Of a stretch of 64,000 nucleotides of DNA, positions 2,134-51,679 are shown piece by piece. The notes below the pieces were generated by a model that saw only the letters and a list, made by a program, of their open reading frames with translations, was not told the DNA's origin and made no database searches. The DNA is taken from sequence record MT446390.1; one strand, 5' to 3'. The stretch's first letter is position 1; every line of letters starts with the position of its first letter. The DNA is from Escherichia phage TH12. The translations under genes were made by a program, and so were the position numbers.

Positions 2134-2372
2134 TATTCATCGTCCTCATCATCTTCGTCTTCGTCGTCATCGCCTTCATCAGCGTCGTCTTCCGAAGCTT
2201 TAGCTTTCTTTTCTTCTTCTTCAGGTTCTTCGCCTTCAATCAAAAATTGAGAAGCGATTTCTGCTTTGCGTGCTTCAATCAAACGAACCGTTTTTTCTGC
2301 CATTGCACTTTCAAAAAACTTTCGAGTAGCAACGAGGTCGTTTGATTTAATAGCTTGAATTAAATCGTCCAT
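2133..2372 (-). CDS. 67: prohead core protein gp67
   Basis: 79 aa with poly-acidic C-terminal tail ([18 protein letters not shown]); position after gene 20. Confidence 0.8.
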
Positions 2373-3943
2373 TAAAAATCCTCTTGTTCTTGGTCGGGGT
2401 CTTGGAAACGAGCCTCTTTCGACTCTTCTTCAATTTGCTTAGCCTCTTGTTCAATTTCCTCGTCAGACATCTGAAGAATATCTTTCATAGCTGTTCTGTG
2501 AGAAATATATTTACCAATAAATGGTTCGGCCATCTGAAGCATATTAATGCGACGCTCCAGAATCTCAGCATCCTTTAATTCCGAGAAATAACTATCCCGA
2601 TGAAATTTTATCTTAATATTATTTATTTCATCATTCCACTCATCTTCTGTAATAATTCCTTTAAGAATTAAATTAGTTTTAAGCGGGTCTAGGAATATCT
2701 CTTCAAATTTATGTTGCAGCTCACGAATAAATTTACCAAATGACAATTCATCTCGTGTAATAGAAGTACCAGCATCAAACTGTATACCACCTTGGTCGCT
2801 TGGAATACGGGTAATAGGAATACGTAAAGCCATATAAAGCGCATTACGGAACCAACGTACATCTTCCATATTTCCGGTATTATCTGCACCCGGTAATGTA
2901 TCAACTTCTGTTACTGCTTTACCATCACGTCGTTGTAACCAATAATCTTCGGTCATCGACATAATATGCTGCTGGTTTTTAATCTTGCCTGTAGTAGCAT
3001 CATATGCAATACGGTTTTTCATCGTATTCATAACATGTTGCATATGTTCTGCTGCTTTTCTTGAAGGCATATTACCTGTATCAACGTACCATACACGACG
3101 ATCTGGAGCACGAGTAATACGATAAATTACGACGGCATCTTCAAGAAGTTTTAATTGGTTCGCCGGCTTAATAGCCCGATGCAAATAACCAATGATATTT
3201 TTACCACAGCAATCAACTAAACCAGAATGGGCATAAACAATCGCGGCTTTAGGGATTTTTATTTTTGTGCCAGCTTCATATATGCGACCATCACAAGCAT
3301 AAGATTCGTGTGATGTGTCATAAATGAAATATTCTTTATAACCCTTGACTATTTTAACACCGGCTTCAGTGGTTGTAATAACTTCACGGACATATTGAAC
3401 TTGACGTGGGTCTAAACGACGAAGCTCTTTAATACCTTCTTTAGGGCGTTTAGGGTCAATAATTTTATGGAAGAAAATTCGAGAATCCACATACCAACGT
3501 CTAAAATGGTCTGAACCTTTACGTTGGAAAGATAAATGATTTAACACTTCGTTAAATTCATCCAACATCATTGATTTGATATTTGGGCTAAATTTTGTGT
3601 TGTCTAAATTTATAGAAACGACTTCTGTATCATCTTCATATACGATAGCATCGGAAACTATTTCAGAGACTGCATTATCCACTTCATAGTTCGTCATCAA
3701 ATTTCGATACGTATCGATTAATTCACGGGTTGATTTGAGCCCAGGTTCTTGGCTACCGAACATTCTCTGAAACATAGCATTATATGTTTGCTGTGCTTCA
3801 TTTTCAGATACTTCGTATTCTTTCGCACCGTCGTCCAATTTTGGTGTGGTGATCGATTCTAAATTTTCTTTTTCTTGGTCTTTGTAATCACGTTCGTCCA
3901 TTTTTGCCCATGGAGCAAACAAACTTAAGATATTAAATTTCAT
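2372..3943 (-). CDS. 20: portal vertex protein gp20
   Basis: 523 aa; [23 protein letters not shown]... matches T4 gp20. Confidence 0.95.
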
Positions 3944-32901: not shown

Positions 32902-32976
32902 GGCCCTGTAGCTCAATGGGAGAGCTGTCAGCTCATAACTGATAGGTAGCTGGATCGAAACCAGCCAGGGTCACCA
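32902..32976 (+). tRNA. tRNA, anticodon CAT (Met or Ile2/lysidine type)
   Basis: Manual cloverleaf: acceptor GGCCCTG/CAGGGTC, D-arm GCTC-AATGGGA-GAGC, anticodon loop CTCATAA, T-arm GCTGG-ATCGAAA-CCAGC, discriminator A + CCA. Confidence 0.7.
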
Positions 32977-32979
32977 ATC

Positions 32980-33056
<77 letters not shown>

Positions 33057-36654: not shown

Positions 36655-37015
36655 GCCCTGGGCGTATGAATACAAGCGTAAATTAATCCCAAATGAAGTA
36701 CTATTTGGCCCTATTTTAGCTTTAGCATTTTTAATCTTTATGATTATAGGAGCCGTTTTAGATTCTAGTGAAGTTATATCGTCTGATGCAGCATTTTCAT
36801 TAATGTTCGACGCACCACTTATTGTACCGTTTTTATTAATGCCTATTAACTGGATGGGATATTGGTACCAAGGACGTCATCACAGAGCCCGATTAAGAGA
36901 ATGGAAAGTTCAGTGCGCAAAAGCCCAAGCTCAGTATGATGAAGCTGTTAAAAAGTATGAATATGAAGAAGCTATGGAATTCGTTAAGGAAATAAGATGC
37001 AAAAGCCTTAACTGA
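36623..37015 (+). CDS. hypothetical membrane protein
   Basis: Start at ATG 36623 (MSKPTLYMPSKPWAYEY...); two hydrophobic helices. Confidence 0.45.
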   Translation: MSKPTLYMPSKPWAYEYKRKLIPNEVLFGPILALAFLIFMIIGAVLDSSEVISSDAAFSLMFDAPLIVPFLLMPINWMGYWYQGRHHRARLREWKVQCAKAQAQYDEAVKKYEYEEAMEFVKEIRCKSLN

Positions 37016-37113
37016 ATTTATGCTGTTTACGCTTCTCAAATGATTAGTTATAATGAACTCCTAGCTAAACGTGAAAATGAAACAATCGAAAACTTTATTA
37101 AGGAATGTAGAAA

Positions 37114-37419
37114 ATGAGTAAGATTATTGAAATTAAAGTACCAGAGTTTAATGATGCCAAATCCGCTTCAGATGCAATTTATAAACTTCTGAATCAAGCT
37201 GAACGTATCGAAGAAGAAGCAACAAAGATCGCAGACCAATATGCAGTATCATTTTCTGTAGGTGATTATGGTAGCGGCCGTACTTATTATCCTAAGGGTG
37301 AAATCGTATCCCAGTGGATGAAAGATGAAATTGAAAATAATGGTGGCGATGTTAAGCGTGAAGGTAATGGTTACGTTATTACTGAAGGTGCTTGGGTTTC
37401 GTCTTCTGCGTTGTGCTAA
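37114..37419 (+). CDS. hypothetical protein, paralog family member A (C-terminal GAWVSSSALC)
   Basis: 101 aa ORF with RBS; shares YG-G-TY--PG and C-terminal GWVSSS--C motifs with the next two ORFs. Confidence 0.5.
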   Translation: MSKIIEIKVPEFNDAKSASDAIYKLLNQAERIEEEATKIADQYAVSFSVGDYGSGRTYYPKGEIVSQWMKDEIENNGGDVKREGNGYVITEGAWVSSSALC

Positions 37420-37428
37420 GGAATCATT

Positions 37429-37701
37429 ATGTCTAAAGAACAAACCGAACTGGCTGAAGCTGTAGCAAAAATCTATGCAGCTATTGAGGCTGCCAAAGAA
37501 ATTGCTAATAAACAAAACACAACATTCAACTTGTATCCAGCTTATGGCATGGGTGGAACCTATCATTCACCAGGACATCTTAAAGCCGATCTTGAACGTT
37601 GTACAAAAAACGGTTATGCTGAATGGGCCGACGTTTACCAATACGACTACAACTTGAGCCTTGAAGATGGTGGTTGGGTTGCATCTTCTCACACTTGTTA
37701 A
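37429..37701 (+). CDS. hypothetical protein, paralog family member B (C-terminal GGWVASSHTC)
   Basis: 90 aa ORF; conserved junction TAAGGAATCATTATG. Confidence 0.5.
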   Translation: MSKEQTELAEAVAKIYAAIEAAKEIANKQNTTFNLYPAYGMGGTYHSPGHLKADLERCTKNGYAEWADVYQYDYNLSLEDGGWVASSHTC

Positions 37702-37710
37702 GGAAATCAT

Positions 37711-37908
37711 ATGTCTCGTGAATTAGATTGTGCTGTACGTACGGCCGTAGCTGCTCTAGAAAACCTGTTCCAGATTGCAACCGAAGAGCGTGAAGAAGTT
37801 ACATTGTGGATTGAAGATAATGCAGGTCTGAATCTCCAGGACGCAATCTCGTTATCAAATAATAGTATTACTGTTCAAGGCTGGGTATCATCTAGTTATT
37901 CTTGCTAA
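37711..37908 (+). CDS. hypothetical protein, paralog family member C (C-terminal QGWVSSSYSC)
   Basis: 65 aa ORF; conserved junction TAAGGAAATCATATG. Confidence 0.5.
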   Translation: MSRELDCAVRTAVAALENLFQIATEEREEVTLWIEDNAGLNLQDAISLSNNSITVQGWVSSSYSC

Positions 37909-37913
37909 AACAG

Positions 37914-37950
37914 TTTACAACAAGATAGGGCTATGTTATAGTAGTCCTAT
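37914..37950 (+). promoter_or_regulatory. early promoter / stem-loop cassette
   Basis: GTTTAC -35; element ATAGGGCTATGTTATAGTAGTCCTAT, one mismatch from the 31040 copy. Confidence 0.6.
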
Positions 37951-37970
37951 CAAATTAAATGGAGACAACA

Positions 37971-38210
37971 ATGGTTTATTACGAAAGTATAGGAACCGAA
38001 GTAGTTGCTAAAACTATTACTCGTGAAAAGTTTGCAAAGATATTCGATATGCGTTATAAAAAATCTGAACACAAAGGCATCCGATTCGAAGATGCGCACT
38101 GTACAATTTGCCCTTATAATGAAGACATAAACGGCACAATCGTTCCATTAGTAGAGGCTTCACATGACGACCTCTGGGATGAATATAATATCGCATGTCG
38201 CGAAATTTAA
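37971..38210 (+). CDS. hypothetical protein
   Basis: Start at second ATG (MVYYESIGTEVVAK...), which has RBS GGAGACAACA. Confidence 0.5.
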   Translation: MVYYESIGTEVVAKTITREKFAKIFDMRYKKSEHKGIRFEDAHCTICPYNEDINGTIVPLVEASHDDLWDEYNIACREI

Positions 38211-38235
38211 GTAATCTAAATTCGAGGAAAATATT

Positions 38236-39192
38236 ATGATGTTAGTTATTGGTTCTCGTGCACTTCACTATCACGGTCTTATTGATTCTAGCGCTATCAA
38301 AAATAGTGACTGGGACTTTATTGCGGACCAAGGTTCTTGGAATGTATTCAAAAATCAAATGATGGGTGTATATGTTCACCAAGATAACCCTGATGTCCAA
38401 GTTTTCAAATGCTTCCATAATGGACGCGAAACTCATTTTGAAGCATATATTGTTCCGGCAATCACTAATGTCCGTGAATTAGTCGGTGAACTCACTCCTG
38501 AAGATTTCACGTCTTCTTATGACCTTTTAAAATACGCCAAGAAAAATTTGACTAAAGACCGTTTGAACGGGTTTTACTGGGCAACTCCTGAGATGTGTCT
38601 TGCAATTAAGATGTCTCATCGTTTCAAGAAAAATAATCCATTCTTTTTAAAGACTATGAACCATATTCAGTATCTTCGTGGTAAAGGTGTTACACTTAAC
38701 GATGAACTTACTGAAATTATGCTGAAACGCCAGAAAGAAACCTTGAACTATGCTCACCCAGTTCTTGACACTTCTAAAAGCGCATTCTTTAAAGATGACA
38801 TCTATACGTATGACCATGATACTATTCACGAAGCCATTGCACTAACAGACCGTCCAGCGTATACATTTTATATGAAAGATGGTTCTGAAGTCATGACCTC
38901 ACGCGAGAAGTTCGAATCATTACCAGAAATGGTCAAATTAGCCGGCGTATACGAAGAATCATGTGTACTAGCGTTAGAACGTTCTCAGATTCCTAATAAC
39001 TTTGAAATCCATCCACGTGATAGTTTTATGATGGCATTAGAAAAAGTCTGTACTTCAATCACGTCAGGCTGGTTCCGTGAATACGCTTGGGAAAACTACA
39101 GCAAAGTTGTAAGTATGTACCAAAGCTTAGGACATGACGATTATGTAAAACGTTTTAAACAAAATTTCCATATGGTAAAACCTTTCAAATAA
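38236..39192 (+). CDS. hypothetical protein with possible nucleotidyltransferase-fold motif
   Basis: 318 aa; N-terminal VIGSRALHYHGLIDSSAIKNSDWDF resembles the G[GS]...DxD NTase signature with a longer spacer. Confidence 0.5.
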   Translation: MMLVIGSRALHYHGLIDSSAIKNSDWDFIADQGSWNVFKNQMMGVYVHQDNPDVQVFKCFHNGRETHFEAYIVPAITNVRELVGELTPEDFTSSYDLLKYAKKNLTKDRLNGFYWATPEMCLAIKMSHRFKKNNPFFLKTMNHIQYLRGKGVTLNDELTEIMLKRQKETLNYAHPVLDTSKSAFFKDDIYTYDHDTIHEAIALTDRPAYTFYMKDGSEVMTSREKFESLPEMVKLAGVYEESCVLALERSQIPNNFEIHPRDSFMMALEKVCTSITSGWFREYAWENYSKVVSMYQSLGHDDYVKRFKQNFHMVKPFK

Positions 39193-39204
39193 TTTCGCAA
39201 AACT

Positions 39205-39242
39205 GTTTACACAATTATAGGACTATGTTATAGTAGTCCTAT
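39205..39242 (+). promoter_or_regulatory. early promoter / stem-loop cassette
   Basis: GTTTAC; exact copy of the 26-nt element ATAGGACTATGTTATAGTAGTCCTAT at 39217-39242. Confidence 0.6.
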
Positions 39243-39262
39243 TAAAACATGAGGAGAATATT

Positions 39263-39568
39263 ATGAAATTAGGCGAAACCAACCGAATTGGTCTTTTAAC
39301 TATATTTGTATCACTTTTTTACGTAGCTCTTTCTGTTGCAGTATTACAAAAGGCTTACGATATGGATGGTGTTCCTGGTTTTGTATTCTTATCACCATTT
39401 TTATTATTCGTCGGGGCTTTGTTATTATATGCCACGACTAGTTTTGACCATAACGTCTGGGTTAATTATAAATGTAAATTGTCTGAAGAAGAACACGCAG
39501 AAGCTCGTAAAAAAGCTATTGAATCTACCAATCTAGAAAATTTCATTAAAGAATGTCGAGGAAAATAA
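39263..39568 (+). CDS. hypothetical membrane protein
   Basis: 101 aa; two hydrophobic helices; RBS GAGGAGAA. Confidence 0.5.
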   Translation: MKLGETNRIGLLTIFVSLFYVALSVAVLQKAYDMDGVPGFVFLSPFLLFVGALLLYATTSFDHNVWVNYKCKLSEEEHAEARKKAIESTNLENFIKECRGK

Positions 39569-39569
39569 T

Positions 39570-40256
39570 ATGAATAGTTCTAAAGTGTTTAATAGTCAAG
39601 CTCGTGCAGTAGGTGGTTTTGCTCATAACGTACAAAATGACCAAATCAAAAATGAACCAATGTTCTTTAACTGTGATTTGAGTTTTGCTTGGGATAACGG
39701 CGGTCCTATTACTCGTAGCTTTATTGCCAATCTCCCAATTGATTGGACTAATCAACATGTTGTATTTGATTCTCGGGTTCATATGCTGATGCCTGGTTGG
39801 TATCCTGCTATTCCTGGATATCACCATGACGATGTTCCTCGCCCTGATATTCCAGTCGGCCAACACTTTATTACTGCAGGACAACCTGACTATGATAACC
39901 CTCGTTACCATTCTGAACATATTCTTGGTCTTGTTAACGCTGACGTGTGTCCTACTCATTTTGCAACAGGAACTGCAGAGTTCAGTCAGATTCCTGATGG
40001 CGAACTTATCTATCGCCAATGGCACAAAGAAGTCCTCGAAAAAATTGAAAAAGGTGAACTAGAGAAATGGGAAGCTCCAGACCGTACTCTTCTTCAGTTT
40101 GATTGGCAAACATGGCACACTGGTTCTCGTGCAATTAGTAATGGATGGCGTTGGTTCGGACGTGTATCTCGTAATACAGACCGAGTTAAAAAGATTACCA
40201 ATGAAATTCGTGTCAATGCCCAAGTTTATCTGGAATTCCCTATGGAAGGCTGGTAA
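39570..40256 (+). CDS. hypothetical protein
   Basis: 228 aa ORF, His/Trp-rich; translationally coupled to upstream gene. Confidence 0.55.
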   Translation: MNSSKVFNSQARAVGGFAHNVQNDQIKNEPMFFNCDLSFAWDNGGPITRSFIANLPIDWTNQHVVFDSRVHMLMPGWYPAIPGYHHDDVPRPDIPVGQHFITAGQPDYDNPRYHSEHILGLVNADVCPTHFATGTAEFSQIPDGELIYRQWHKEVLEKIEKGELEKWEAPDRTLLQFDWQTWHTGSRAISNGWRWFGRVSRNTDRVKKITNEIRVNAQVYLEFPMEGW

Positions 40257-40747
40257 TGATTAACAAAACATATTGGTCTAATATTGACGACGGCAATGAA
40301 GGTATTTCATACTATTCAGTAGATTGGACAGGATGTCCATCCTACTTAGTGAAACGTATTTGTCAAGAATTTAAAATCGACCAGCCAGCAGGTATTATCG
40401 TGAACAGATACATTAATGGATATCAACCTATCGATGAAGTAATACGAACAACTCAAGCTGATCTTGAAAAGTTTTTCAATAAGTGTCAATGGATAACAGG
40501 ATGGATTATATTTGTACCGTCGGTATGGTTTTTTAGTACTAAAGTAAGTGCCTTTGCCATACCAGATATTATCGCTATCTTATTAGCATCTACTATCGTA
40601 AGTATTATTGGTGGTATTATTGGTGGAGGTACTATAGGCATCATTATTAATCTTGTTAAAAGTAGTTTACAGGAACGTAAAGACAAGATAAAGGCCAAGA
40701 ATAATGAAGTTGAACGTTTTATTACCGAATGCAGGAATTTGAGATGA
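40256..40747 (+). CDS. hypothetical membrane protein
   Basis: 163 aa; C-terminal Gly/Ile-rich TM segments. Confidence 0.5.
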   Translation: MINKTYWSNIDDGNEGISYYSVDWTGCPSYLVKRICQEFKIDQPAGIIVNRYINGYQPIDEVIRTTQADLEKFFNKCQWITGWIIFVPSVWFFSTKVSAFAIPDIIAILLASTIVSIIGGIIGGGTIGIIINLVKSSLQERKDKIKAKNNEVERFITECRNLR

Positions 40748-40980
40748 GTATAGCAATTTACATTAAATCAGAATCATGTGATAGTTATCTGTACACATAT
40801 GATAAAGATGTGTCAGAAGAAAAAATCAAAGACGATCTTAATATGGACCTTGATTTGTTCAGTCCTATTGCAGATTACAAACTTGCGGTCTCTAATAGTG
40901 AAAGTCCATCTAAAGAAACGCGTATTGAAGAATTTATGTCCGAATTAATGGCCAAATCATGGGACCGAGATGATGAGTAA
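40729..40980 (+). CDS. small acidic hypothetical protein
   Basis: 83 aa ORF overlapping neighbours. Confidence 0.4.
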   Translation: MQEFEMSIAIYIKSESCDSYLYTYDKDVSEEKIKDDLNMDLDLFSPIADYKLAVSNSESPSKETRIEEFMSELMAKSWDRDDE

Positions 40981-41428
40981 GAAAAATAAAGTGAAAGAAC
41001 TATCAGCCGGTATTATCTTCATGACAAAAGATAAAGAATTATTCATGGGTCGTGTAACTGGTTCTCGTCCTAAAGGTGCATTAGCTCATCGGTGGGATAT
41101 TCCTAAAGGCCGTGTCGAACCTGGCGAATCTCCTATCGAAGCCGCTATTCGTGAATGCGAAGAAGAAACTGGGTTTACACAATATGACCCTGCCTTCCTG
41201 AAAGACCTAGGTGAACATCATTACTCAGATAATAAGAATATTCATCTGTTCCTATATACCATCCCTGTAGAGCACGAGCAATTCAGAAACAGTGTTTGTA
41301 ATTCATATCATACATTCCCGGACGGACGACAGATTCCTGAATTTGATGCATTCGCTTTAATTAAACCTTCTCAATGGGAATATGTAATGGGCAAATCATT
41401 ATATAAGGTGCTCACTACCATCCTATAA
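40970..41428 (+). CDS. nudE: Nudix hydrolase NudE (e.1)
   Basis: 152 aa; Nudix box GRVEPGESPIEAAIRECEEETG; immediately upstream of e as in T4. Confidence 0.85.
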   Translation: MMSKKNKVKELSAGIIFMTKDKELFMGRVTGSRPKGALAHRWDIPKGRVEPGESPIEAAIRECEEETGFTQYDPAFLKDLGEHHYSDNKNIHLFLYTIPVEHEQFRNSVCNSYHTFPDGRQIPEFDAFALIKPSQWEYVMGKSLYKVLTTIL

Positions 41429-41462
41429 GTAATAAATACCTCCTATAAACGTGGGAGGTATT

Positions 41463-41951
41463 ATGAATATATTTGAAATGCTTCGTAATGACGAAGGTCT
41501 TAGACTGACTTTATACAAAGACACTGAAGGCTTTTGGACGATTGGCATAGGCCATTTAGTAACAAAGAACCCGTCTTTAGCCGTAGCTAAAGCTGAACTT
41601 GACAGAATGATCGGTCGTAAATGCAACGGTACAATTACCCTTGATGAGGCTGAAAAGCTATTTAATGAAGACGTCGATAAAGCCGTTCGCGGAATCTTGG
41701 GTAATGCTAAACTTAAACCGGTATATGATTCTTTAGACGCGGTTCGTCGATGTGCATTGGTCAATATGGTCTTCCAAATGGGTGTAGCAGGCGTTGCTGG
41801 TTTTACTAATTCTCTTCGTATGCTTCAACAGAAACGTTGGGATGAAGCGGCAGTAAATCTCGCCCAATCTAAATGGTATCGTCAGACACCTAATCGCGCG
41901 AAACGCGTAATCTCAACATTTAAAACAGGAACTTGGAAAGCGTATATATGA
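41463..41951 (+). CDS. e: endolysin (T4 lysozyme, gene e)
   Basis: Start at internal Met ([32 protein letters not shown]...); near-identical to T4 lysozyme including catalytic E11/D20/T26 context. Confidence 0.95.
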
Positions 41952-50219: not shown

Positions 50220-50693
50220 ATGATTATCAATGAAAACTCTTGGCACTTTAAAATTTATGCCGCGTTCAATAGTACATGGAATCGTCCGAAAACGTTGTGT
50301 GCTTATTTTTGGAAAACGTTAATCCCAGTATTGTCTGTTTCAATTATTGGATTTGCGATTTTAGCAGCAGTCGTAATCATTGGCCAGGAAATTTTAACTA
50401 GATTCTTTGTTTTTAGCAGTCTATGGACATTAGTTCCGGCCTCAATTGGCGTAGGCATTTTAATGGTAGCAGTCATGTCTCTTATTGCTGTCGGGTTGGT
50501 AATTGGCCCGTCTTGGTTGTTAGACAAATATAACGACAGAAAATATTATAAAGAAGTTGAGCTCATTGCACAAAACCAAGAACGAATTAAAAATGGACTT
50601 GAGCCTATTGAACGTAAGAAATCATTAATAGGTGAATACCTTAAAGCTCGTAAAGAAAAAGTCTGTCCTACTCTTGAATATAAGGCTAAATGA
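50220..50693 (+). CDS. hypothetical membrane protein
   Basis: 157 aa; 2-3 predicted TM helices. Confidence 0.5.
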   Translation: MIINENSWHFKIYAAFNSTWNRPKTLCAYFWKTLIPVLSVSIIGFAILAAVVIIGQEILTRFFVFSSLWTLVPASIGVGILMVAVMSLIAVGLVIGPSWLLDKYNDRKYYKEVELIAQNQERIKNGLEPIERKKSLIGEYLKARKEKVCPTLEYKAK

Positions 50694-51679
50694 TGAAAAC
50701 AATTATGAAAGGCTACTTTGGTAGTCACCTTTATGGAACGTCTACTCCTGAATCTGACGTCGATTTTAAAGAAATTTATGTCCCTCATGCTCGTGATATC
50801 TTGACCGGTAACGTTAAAGAACACATGAGCAAGAACACGAATAACACATCTTCTAAGAACACAAAAGACGACGTGGACCATGAGTTGTATAGTCTCAAAT
50901 ATTTCTTTAAACTAGCTGTGGATGGTGAAACCGTCGCATTAGATATGCTTCACACTCCACAAAGTCTAGTAGTTAAATCTGATTTGCCTGATGTATGGAA
51001 GTATATTCAAGATAACAGATCTCGTTTCTATACCACTAACATGAAATCTTATTTAGGGTATGTCCGTAAGCAAGCTTCTAAATATGGCGTCAAGGGTTCT
51101 CGTCTGGCTGTTCTCCGCCAAGCCCTTAAACGTTCTAATGAATGGGGACGATACTTTGATAATGGCGCAGTAATTCGTTTATCACATATGAAGAACGTTC
51201 TGCCTGTAGGTGAATTTGCTTCATGGGTTGAAACTGAAAACGAGAAAACAGGTAAGCAAACATTCTATAGTCTGTTGGACCGTAAATTCCAAGACACGTT
51301 AACCAATAAAGAGTTCAATGCCATCCTGGTTAAACTTGAAGAGAACTACGGTGAACGTGCTCGTAAGGCAGAAGCCAATGAAGGTATTGATTGGAAAGCA
51401 TTGAGTCATGCATGCCGTGGTGGACTTCAGCTCTTAGAAATTTACAAAACCGGCGACCTGGTTTACCCGCTTCAGGATGCTCCATTTATTCTCGATGTTA
51501 AGCTTGGTAAACATACGTTTAAAACCGTACAGGAATTCTTAGAAGATATCGTTGACCAAGTTGAACATGCGGCAGAACAAGCTGCTAAGAACGGTATGCA
51601 GCAAAAAGTAGATATGAGTTTCTGGGATGACTTCCTTGAGCAAGTCTACTTAGAAAACCACAATTCATACTATAAATGA
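50690..51679 (+). CDS. nucleotidyltransferase-fold protein (Pol-beta-like NTase superfamily)
   Basis: 329 aa; N-terminal YFGSHLYGTSTPESDVDF fits the hG[GS]-x(9-13)-DhDh NTase signature. Confidence 0.6.
   Translation: MMKTIMKGYFGSHLYGTSTPESDVDFKEIYVPHARDILTGNVKEHMSKNTNNTSSKNTKDDVDHELYSLKYFFKLAVDGETVALDMLHTPQSLVVKSDLPDVWKYIQDNRSRFYTTNMKSYLGYVRKQASKYGVKGSRLAVLRQALKRSNEWGRYFDNGAVIRLSHMKNVLPVGEFASWVETENEKTGKQTFYSLLDRKFQDTLTNKEFNAILVKLEENYGERARKAEANEGIDWKALSHACRGGLQLLEIYKTGDLVYPLQDAPFILDVKLGKHTFKTVQEFLEDIVDQVEHAAEQAAKNGMQQKVDMSFWDDFLEQVYLENHNSYYK

What the first reader, a model, noticed from the sequence alone, without database searches (positions are those of the whole stretch)
38236..39192. Second large ORF with a degenerate NTase-like N-terminal motif
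VIGSRALHYHGLIDSSAIKNSDWDFIAD resembles the G[GS]...DxD nucleotidyltransferase signature but with a 17-residue spacer, so the call is weak. If real, the phage carries two distinct NTase-fold proteins (this one and 50690) in the accessory region.
Basis: inference. Interest (0 to 1): 0.45.

Follow-up and report, generated by a model that had tools for sequence, protein, structure and literature searches.

The report
Phage nucleotidyltransferase-like enzyme with tailed partner proteins
The ORF is very probably a real, phage-only enzyme of the nucleotidyltransferase fold with an intact catalytic motif, and in hundreds of unrelated phages it sits just downstream of small acidic proteins that all end in the same W-x-S-S-S-x-x-C tail, which points to an undescribed enzyme-and-partner module.

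Summary
The ORF (38236..39192, +, 318 aa) is real. It is the RB69ORF134c homologue in a Mosigvirus genome. Pfam files it only as DUF7277 + DUF7275.

Across 150 representatives that are at most 50% identical to each other:
- G6 is kept in 100% and S7 in 98%.
- D25 is kept in 99% and D27 in 100%.

The family is phage-restricted, and I found no paper on it.

New finding: in 72 of 80 diverse phage loci the gene follows 1-4 tandem small acidic ORFs ending in W-x-S-S-S-x-x-C-stop. That is 154 such ORFs upstream against 0 of 3510 elsewhere. A reverse search gave 36 of 36 testable cases, and T4 lacks both genes. The window has three such ORFs at 37114..37908.

Best reading: an active nucleotidyltransferase that acts on, or is controlled by, these tails. 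The substrate was not shown. ORF 50690 is indeed a second, unrelated NTase (RlaP family, T4 nrdC.11 orthologue).

The parts
38236..39192 (+). ORF of 318 aa (RB69ORF134c homologue): two-lobed nucleotidyltransferase-like enzyme, Pfam DUF7277 + DUF7275, PHROG 2141
   Evidence: AlphaFold model with pLDDT 92.5
38236..38574 (+). N-terminal lobe (residues 1-113, DUF7277): predicted Pol-beta-type NTase core, beta1-alpha-beta2-alpha-beta3-beta4-beta5
38251..38256 (+). G6-S7, the h-G-[GS] element at the end of beta1
   Evidence: G 150/150 and S 147/150 in representatives; also kept in the short clade
38308..38316 (+). D25-W-D27, the metal-binding DxD at the start of beta2
   Evidence: D25 148/150 (the other 2 are E), D27 150/150
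38440..38442 (+). E69, third carboxylate, on predicted strand 64-73
   Evidence: E 133 plus D 15 of 150; the equivalent E35 is E or D in 120/120 short-clade proteins
38593..39150 (+). C-terminal helical lobe (residues 120-305, DUF7275). No solved structural relative; it is the most conserved part of the protein
38608..38622 (+). K125-M-S-H128-R129 on the first helix of the C-lobe. Candidate counterpart of the catalytic Lys (motif III) of MenT toxins; K139-T140 follow at 38650..38655
   Evidence: K125 150/150, H128 149/150, K139 150/150; the correspondence with MenT1 K137 is inferred from spacing only
38815..38829 (+). H194-D195-T-I-H198, invariant HDxxH on helix 194-201 (possible metal or substrate site)
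   Evidence: 150/150 each; kept in the short clade
38953..38982 (+). E240-E241 ... E248-R249 on the long helix 231-254, all invariant
   Evidence: 150/150 each; kept in the short clade
37114..37419 (+). Small acidic protein 1 (101 aa, RB69ORF139c-like, PHROG 899), ends ...GAWVSSSALC-stop
37429..37701 (+). Small acidic protein 2 (90 aa, RB69ORF137c-like, PHROG 899), has the internal AYGMGGTY motif, ends ...GGWVASSHTC-stop
37711..37908 (+). Small acidic protein 3 (65 aa, RB69ORF136c-like, PHROG 4882), ends ...QGWVSSSYSC-stop
37026..37054 (+). Promoter-like site (TTTACG-17-TATAAT) ahead of the three small ORFs
   Evidence: consensus match only
37914..37942 (+). Promoter-like site (TTTACA-17-TG-TATAGT) ahead of ORF 37959..38210 and the enzyme gene
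   Evidence: consensus match only
37959..38210 (+). Intervening 83-aa ORF (RB69ORF135c, PHROG 3723). Lineage-specific and not part of the conserved module
   Evidence: not among the neighbour families shared across diverse loci

Best explanation
ORF 38236..39192 encodes an active, phage-specific member of the Pol-beta nucleotidyltransferase superfamily. The N-lobe supplies the G-S / D-x-D / E metal-and-nucleotide site. A family-specific helical C-lobe (DUF7275) supplies an invariant Lys/His pair and an HDxxH/EE/ER cluster, which probably form the acceptor pocket. The enzyme is one half of a conserved phage module. The other half is 1-5 tandem small acidic proteins, three of them in this window, that differ in their bodies but all end in W-x-S-S-S-x-x-C at the free C-terminus. 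The most likely mechanism is that the enzyme binds Mg-NTP and transfers a nucleotidyl group onto this tail, most plausibly onto the invariant Ser-Ser hydroxyls. This would resemble protein-modifying NTases such as MNT, GlnE/GlnD and DrrA, and would convert the small proteins into their active form during early infection. What is shown: the ORF, motif conservation, predicted fold, phage restriction and two-way gene linkage. What is inferred: catalysis, the nature of the group transferred, and that the tail is the acceptor. Sub-confidences: NTase fold with a competent triad about 0.85; real functional module with the tailed proteins about 0.85; tail as the covalent substrate about 0.4.

For: Catalytic residues. 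G6, S7, D25, D27 and E69 are kept in 98-100% of 150 diverse representatives. They are also kept in a shorter 250-aa clade.

The same shared core includes K125, H128, K139, H194, D195, H198, E240, E241, E248 and R249.

Module, forward direction. In 80 IMG/VR loci, 154 of 1304 upstream same-strand ORFs end in the strict tail motif, against 0 of 3510 other ORFs, and 72 of 80 loci have 1-4 copies. The tail ORFs are also present in phiPsa267, Apostate and all five MAG loci. The window has exactly three in 64 kb, all within 1.1 kb upstream.

Module, reverse direction. I scanned IMG/VR for the internal AYGMGG.Y motif. Of the matches, 42 lie in ORFs that end in the tail. Of those, 36 have the enzyme gene in the DNA held, the other 6 have under 1 kb of downstream DNA, and there are no counter-examples.

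Co-absence. T4 (5.1-80 kb) has neither gene, and its e.3 abuts e.2 where the block sits here.

The tail. W(-7), S(-4) and C(0) were fixed by the search pattern. S(-3), which the pattern left free among S/A/T/N, is Ser in 134 of 137 sequences. Bodies average 29% identity, and the proteins are acidic, median pI 4.4.

The family is virtually absent from 185,579 prokaryote genomes: 5 MAG contigs, all carrying the tail ORFs as well.
Against: - No sequence-level link to any named NTase family was found: relaxed Pfam scans of 45 members, PDB profile search, PADLOC and NCBIfam. The fold assignment therefore rests on a predicted structure plus motifs.
- I could not read model coordinates, so the clustering of the conserved residues in space was not checked.
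- The short clade in actinophage-like genomes keeps the whole catalytic core but has no tail ORFs within 4-6 kb. The chemistry therefore does not strictly need the small proteins. They could instead be regulators, or be specific to the long clade.
- About 6% of long-clade loci also lack them nearby.
- No interaction, modification or activity was tested.
Confidence: 0.5

Rival explanations
1. MenT/AbiEii-like RNA nucleotidyltransferase. The enzyme adds nucleotides to RNA 3' ends (tRNA acceptor stems), either to shut off host translation or to repair phage or host tRNAs. The upstream small proteins are cognate inhibitors or adaptors (antitoxin-like) that plug the active site with their C-terminal tail.
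For: - The best structural match is the tRNA NTase toxin MenT1, followed by MenT3 and MenT4.
- MenT1 is neutralised by a small protein, MenA1; most menA1 homologues lie upstream of a menT-like gene, and MenA1 blocks the MenT1 active sites (PMC10435456).
- The short clade without tail proteins lies 0.6-5 kb from an RNA ligase gene in three loci, once also with a LigT-type phosphoesterase.
- The gene sits in the tRNA-to-e early region, 5 kb from tRNA-Met and tRNA-Arg.
- Many invariant basic residues (K125, R129, K139, R165, K181, R249, K270, R281) would suit a phosphate-rich substrate.
Against: - No hit to the DUF1814/AbiEii models in Pfam or PADLOC.
- The acidic motif IV residue of MenT has no obvious counterpart: the position 15 residues after K125 is an invariant Thr.
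- One to five divergent paralogues that share only a tail look like clients rather than antitoxins.
- The protein has a near-neutral pI of 6.5.
- The RNA ligase proximity comes from three related actinophage-type loci and may be inherited gene order.
Confidence: 0.25
2. Small-molecule nucleotidyltransferase, like ANT(2'') or LnuA. It would inactivate or modify an antibiotic, metabolite or signalling nucleotide that interferes with infection. The small proteins would be unrelated neighbours.
Against: It does not explain the two-way, near-exclusive linkage with the tailed proteins. There is no sequence similarity to resistance NTases. The extreme conservation across phages of Proteobacteria, Actinobacteria and others argues for a universal target.
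Confidence: 0.1
3. Not a transferase. The NTase-like lobe is a structural remnant, and the protein acts through the C-lobe His/Asp/Glu cluster as a metal-dependent hydrolase or as a non-catalytic binder or chaperone of the tailed proteins.
Confidence: 0.08

Closest known systems
MenT/AbiEii (DUF1814) nucleotidyltransferase toxins (MenT1 8an4, MenT3/TglT 6j7n, MenT4 6y56)
   Different: No sequence-level membership. The C-lobe here is about twice as large and mostly without structural relatives. It carries an HDxxH/EE/ER set that is not among the MenT motifs or active-site residues described in the paper read. It is found in lytic phages rather than chromosomal toxin-antitoxin loci. The partners are 1-5 paralogues defined by a C-terminal tail.
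ANT(2'')-Ia (4xje) and LnuA (4wh5) antibiotic nucleotidyltransferases; TM1012 (2ewr)
   Different: 7-12% identity in the structural alignments, no profile hit, no resistance context, and a much larger C-lobe.
Protein-modifying Pol-beta NTases (MNT antitoxin of HEPN-MNT systems, GlnE, GlnD, DrrA)
   Same: This is the proposed way of working: nucleotidyl transfer to a hydroxyl of a dedicated partner protein. In HEPN-MNT the partner is encoded next door. This rests on my own knowledge of those systems and was not tested here.
   Different: None of them appeared among the top fold matches. Their acceptors are Tyr residues within folded domains, not a Ser-rich C-terminal tail.
RlaP (RNA-ligase-associated Pol-beta NTase), i.e. 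T4 nrdC.11 and the window ORF 50690..51679
   Same: Same superfamily motif (FGS-x10-DVDF), same phage, early accessory region.
   Different: No detectable profile similarity (hhalign probability 0.1%). Different C-terminal domains. RlaP is present in T4, whereas this family is not.
RiPP-type clusters with several precursor genes next to a tailoring enzyme
   Same: Tandem, divergent small ORFs with an N-terminal amphipathic helix and an invariant C-terminal Ser/Cys motif, directly upstream of one enzyme. S-x-x-C is the spacing of many lanthionine rings (my own knowledge).
   Different: No match to RiPP-precursor or any other named model in NCBIfam or Pfam. The enzyme fold is not one used by known lanthipeptide synthetases (my own knowledge).

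Membership tests
Pol-beta-like nucleotidyltransferase superfamily | h-G-[GS] at the end of the first core strand | tested here: met
   I5-G6-S7 at the beta1/helix junction; G 150/150 and S 147/150
Pol-beta-like nucleotidyltransferase superfamily | [DE]-h-[DE]-h on the next strand | tested here: met
   D25-W-D27-F at the start of strand 26-31; 148/150 and 150/150
Pol-beta-like nucleotidyltransferase superfamily | Third carboxylate on a neighbouring strand (h-[DE]-h) | tested here: met
   F68-E69-A70 in strand 64-73; E or D in 148/150 and in 120/120 short-clade proteins.
Pol-beta-like nucleotidyltransferase superfamily | Classical spacer of 9-13 residues between G[GS] and the first Asp | tested here: not met
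   17 residues here; family range 10-28, mode 15; only 16 of 150 fall within 10-13. This is a loop-length difference and the structural matches are unaffected
Pol-beta-like nucleotidyltransferase superfamily | alpha/beta core fold superimposable on known NTases | tested here: met
Pol-beta-like nucleotidyltransferase superfamily | Metal-dependent nucleotidyl transfer activity | not testable with these tools
   Needs biochemistry
DUF1814 / AbiEii / MenT toxins | Match to the family sequence model | tested here: not met
   No AbiEii/DUF1814 hit in Pfam at E up to 5 for 45 members or in PADLOC at E up to 1
DUF1814 / AbiEii / MenT toxins | C-lobe motif III Lys and motif IV acidic residue (MenT1 K137, D152) | tested here: inconclusive
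   Invariant K125 lies 100 residues after D25, and MenT1 K137 lies 96 after D41. No invariant acidic residue sits at the matching distance. No residue-level superposition was available
DUF1814 / AbiEii / MenT toxins | Adjacent cognate antitoxin and growth inhibition | tested here: inconclusive
   Small upstream partners exist, but they are multi-copy, tail-defined and unrelated to known antitoxins. Toxicity was not tested
Pfam DUF7277 + DUF7275 (PHROG 2141) | Both domains above the gathering score, in this order | tested here: met
   95.6 and 264.3 bits against a cut-off of 27; PHROG 2141 at 4.3e-150
RlaP NTases | Profile similarity to PF10127 or to the window's RlaP protein | tested here: not met
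   No Pfam hit; hhalign probability 0.1%
HD-domain phosphohydrolases (for the C-lobe) | H...HD...D metal site on an HD helical fold | tested here: not met
Lanthipeptide / RiPP tailoring systems | Recognised synthetase domains or precursor families | tested here: not met
   No RiPP-related match in Pfam for the enzyme, in Pfam for the three window small proteins or in NCBIfam for 30 small proteins. The resemblance is organisational only

The most novel reading that the evidence does not exclude
A previously undescribed phage post-translational modification system. An NTase-fold enzyme with a novel C-terminal domain would install a covalent modification on the invariant C-terminal W-x-S-S-S-x-x-C tail of several small acidic effector proteins. 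The modification could be O-nucleotidylation of Ser, possibly followed by elimination and Ser-Cys or Trp-Cys cross-linking. This would be a RiPP-like or protein-tagging pathway carried by thousands of large lytic phages of Proteobacteria, with a tail-independent sister clade in actinophages.
Probability: 0.35. Interest if true: 0.8.

Novelty: new variant of a known kind. Interest (0 to 1): 0.62.

Why it matters
The family is large: about 2200 clusters at 90% identity and 1585 clusters at 50% identity, found in 734 of 50,697 GenBank phage records. It is confined to phages, is filed only as two DUFs, and has no literature that I could find.

Showing that it is a nucleotidyltransferase with a fully conserved catalytic triad gives it a testable chemistry. 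The strict linkage to tandem small acidic proteins that share only a C-terminal W-x-S-S-S-x-x-C tail gives it a concrete candidate partner, so simple experiments can decide its function (co-expression with mass spectrometry, labelled-NTP transfer, toxicity with and without the partners).

If the tail is a substrate, this would be a new kind of phage protein modification. It would also be a likely source of host-takeover or anti-defence effectors. If the small proteins are inhibitors, it would be a phage-borne MenT-like toxin module. Either way it explains a block of about 2 kb of 'hypothetical' early genes that RB69-like phages have and T4 lacks.

Tried and rejected
- **Sequence searches for a named relative.** Pfam, NCBIfam and PADLOC gave only the two DUFs and noise. 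A relaxed Pfam scan of 45 members found no NTase family. phmmer and a profile against PDB sequences gave only a spurious PsaB match.
- **Comparison with the window's RlaP protein.** hhalign found no relation.
- **Domain fusions.** The longest family members have only N-terminal extensions without domains; one has a DUF1190 piece.
- **Bacterial homologues with informative context.** The scan found only 5 MAG contigs that look like phage.
- **Other conserved neighbours.** Apart from the tailed proteins, shared neighbours are only T4-like synteny, such as nudE, e and ORF132c.
- **Small proteins.** No Pfam, NCBIfam or PDB relative. The PDB hits are designed helical bundles that match the N-terminal helix.
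- **Reverse search with small-protein alignments.** I replaced it with a DNA pattern for AYGMGG.Y.
- **Literature.** Searches for the DUF numbers, RB69ORF134c, phage NTases, phage RiPPs and C-terminal-cysteine small proteins found nothing relevant.
- **Prohead scaffold or baseplate hub.** Some GenBank records give these names to homologues. I rejected this because the gene lies in an early accessory region and the fold is enzymatic.

Full report
**Setting.** The window is a Mosigvirus (RB69-like T4-type phage). Nucleotides 37000-41000 are 99.7% identical to Escherichia phage CCU7 and Shigella phage Shf125875. In the RefSeq record of Shf125875 the ORF is a 'hypothetical protein similar to RB69ORF134c'. 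It lies in the early accessory region between the e.3-like genes and e.2/nudE/e. The window has tRNA-Met and tRNA-Arg at 32902-33056, NudE at 40970-41428 and lysozyme at 41451-41951.

**Observation.** The ORF 38236..39192 (+) is real: 318 aa, an ATG start and a GAGGAA ribosome-binding site. The quoted peptide is residues 4-31, and the spacer from S7 to D25 is 17 residues. A loosened NTase pattern is found in only 2 of 83 window ORFs of at least 100 aa. The pattern appears in 0.5% of shuffles of this protein.

**Family.**
- Pfam gives DUF7277 (residues 2-101, 2.9e-27) and DUF7275 (120-305, 8e-79). PHROGs gives family 2141, function unknown.
- The word-indexed search found 2221 relatives. The exhaustive profile search found 1585 clusters at 50% identity, and the best 150 all have the same roughly 300-aa architecture.
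- tblastn finds the family in 734 of 50,697 phage records. These include T4-like phages of enterobacteria, Aeromonas, Acinetobacter and Vibrio, Otagovirus, rV5-like phages, and Streptomyces, Gordonia and Mycobacterium phages.
- A scan of one genome for each of 185,579 prokaryotic species found only five MAG contigs, so the family is essentially phage-only.
- No paper mentions the DUFs or the RB69 ORF.

**Is the motif real?** Yes. Among 150 representatives that are at most 50% identical to each other:
- G6 is kept in 150, S7 in 147, D25 in 148 (the other two are E) and D27 in 150.
- The spacer ranges from 10 to 28 residues with a mode of 15, so 17 is typical here even though it exceeds the textbook 9-13.

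A separate clade of about 250-aa proteins, mostly from actinophage-type genomes, has a much shorter N-lobe. It still keeps G6, S7, D22, D24 and E35, the last being E or D in 120 of 120.

**Structure.** AlphaFold2 with a 45-sequence alignment gives pLDDT 92.5 and pTM 0.87.
- The order is beta1(2-5), helix(6-12), beta2(26-31), helix, beta3, beta4, beta5(64-73). That puts IGS at the beta1/helix junction, DxD at the start of beta2 and E69 on beta5, which is the canonical Pol-beta NTase arrangement.
- Foldseek finds only 5uvd and MenT1.

All of this rests on a predicted structure. I could not access coordinates to measure distances.

- K125, K139, H194, D195, H198, E240, E241, E248, R249, S277, G278 and R281 are each kept in 150 of 150; H128 in 149.
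- The core shared with the short clade is G6 S7 D25 D27 K125 H128 K139 H194 D195 H198 E240 E241 E248 R249.
- T140, R165, Y172, Y190, C272, S277 and R281 are invariant only in the long clade.
- K125 lies at about the same distance from the DxD as the catalytic Lys of MenT1 (K137 against D41; PMC10435456). That correspondence is inferred, not superposed.

**The new element: a conserved partner.** I clustered the ORFs that flank 80 diverse IMG/VR homologues (40-98% identity). One family of small ORFs occurs upstream, on the same strand, in 72 loci.
- All of them end in W-x-[S/A/P]-S-S-x-x-C followed by the stop codon. In the window the tails are GAWVSSSALC, GGWVASSHTC and QGWVSSSYSC, on ORFs 37114-37419, 37429-37701 and 37711-37908.
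- With a strict pattern, 154 of 1304 upstream same-strand ORFs carry the tail, against 0 of 3510 ORFs elsewhere in the same loci. There are 1-4 copies per locus.
- The tail ORFs are also present upstream of the gene in Pseudomonas phage phiPsa267 (4 copies), Acinetobacter phage Apostate (2) and all five MAG contigs.
- In the whole 64-kb window only these three ORFs have the tail.
- For the reverse direction I scanned IMG/VR for an internal motif of the small proteins (AYGMGG.Y), which is independent of both the tail and the enzyme. It gave 79 matches, 42 of them in ORFs that end in the strict tail.
- Of those 42, 36 have the DUF7277/7275 gene in the DNA held. The other six have less than 1 kb of downstream sequence, and there is no counter-example.
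- T4 lacks both the enzyme and any tail ORF over 75 kb of its early arm. Its e.3 directly abuts e.2 where the block sits here.

The small proteins form one BLAST-connected family (131 of 137 unique sequences). They have these features:
- They are 41-159 aa long and acidic, with a median pI of 4.4.
- They have an N-terminal amphipathic helix (consensus EA..IADE.G..F) and often a YG.GG.Y motif.
- Mean column identity is only 29%, yet W(-7), S(-4), S(-3) and C(0) are invariant.
- They match PHROG 899 or 4882, both of unknown function.
- They have no Pfam, NCBIfam or PDB relative.

**Limits of the linkage.** The short clade keeps the catalytic core but has no tail ORFs within 4-6 kb. Instead an RNA ligase gene lies 0.6-5 kb away in three loci, once with a LigT-type phosphoesterase. 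A few long-clade loci also lack nearby tail ORFs. So the enzyme's chemistry does not absolutely need the small proteins.

**Mechanism.** Several things are shown: a real gene, an invariant NTase triad, an NTase-like predicted fold, a novel invariant C-lobe, phage restriction and a two-way, near-exclusive gene linkage with tail-bearing small proteins.

My best inference is that the enzyme binds Mg-NTP on the G-S/DxD/E site and transfers a nucleotidyl group to an acceptor held by the C-lobe. In the long clade that acceptor would be the C-terminal tail of the co-encoded proteins. Three observations support this:
- The paralogues share only the tail.
- The tail's position relative to the free C-terminus is fixed.
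- The tail consists of nucleophilic Ser and Cys residues.

The main rival is a MenT-like RNA 3'-end transferase whose small partners are inhibitors or adaptors. The best structural match, the MenA1 precedent and the RNA ligase neighbourhood of the short clade all favour it. A small-molecule NTase and a non-transferase role are less likely.

**Second NTase.** ORF 50690..51679 carries FGS-x10-DVDF. It matches Pfam RlaP at 1.4e-12 and is 77% identical to T4 nrdC.11, which is annotated as a nucleotidyltransferase. It shows no profile similarity to the present family. The phage therefore does encode two distinct NTase-fold proteins.

**Verdict.** The protein is a new, phage-specific branch of a known superfamily. 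It has a novel C-terminal domain and a gene partnership that, as far as I could find, has not been described. The function remains to be shown.

Noticed in passing
It is 329 aa, carries FGSHLYGTSTPESDVDF, matches Pfam RlaP (RNA-ligase-associated Pol-beta NTase) at 1.4e-12, and is 77% identical to T4 nrdC.11. It is unrelated in sequence to ORF 38236.
   Followed up: yes
window 37114..40256 compared with T4 (L090 12653..13320): The whole block is missing in T4, where e.3 directly abuts e.2. The block comprises three tail-bearing small ORFs, ORF135c, the enzyme, a small membrane protein (39263..39568) and ORF132c (39570..40256). It behaves as an insertion/deletion cassette among T4-like phages.
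   Followed up: partly
window 39570..40256 (+): A 228-aa ORF (RB69ORF132c, PHROG 1843, no Pfam hit), rich in conserved His, Asp and Trp. It is shared with the enzyme only within T4-like loci (23 of 80), so it is probably not part of the core module. Function unknown.
   Followed up: no
L003 1872..2531, L170 478..1089 and 2145..2672, L172 4755..5408: In the short (about 250 aa) clade of the family, an RNA ligase gene lies 0.6-5 kb upstream, and once a LigT/2H phosphoesterase is present too. No tail-bearing small ORFs are nearby. This may point to an RNA-end function for that clade, or it may just be inherited gene order.
   Followed up: partly
residue C272 (window 39049..39051) and other long-clade-only invariants: C272, S277, R281, T140, R165, Y172 and Y190 are invariant only in the clade that travels with the Cys-ending small proteins. 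The short clade has other residues there (C272 becomes I/T). They are candidates for tail recognition, or for a thiol or metal interaction with the terminal Cys.
   Followed up: no
window 37959..38210 (+): An 83-aa ORF (RB69ORF135c, PHROG 3723) lies between the small proteins and the enzyme. It has a C-x-x-C and several His, so it may bind zinc. It is lineage-specific.
   Followed up: no
GenBank records of homologues: Homologues are variously mis-annotated as 'prohead assembly scaffold protein', 'baseplate hub subunit' and 'putative antibiotic resistance protein'. Only Acinetobacter phage Apostate calls it 'putative nucleotidyltransferase'.
   Followed up: no
window 32902..33056 (+): tRNA-Met (CAT) and tRNA-Arg (TCT) genes lie about 5 kb upstream of the module, in the same early, rightward-transcribed region.
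   Followed up: no
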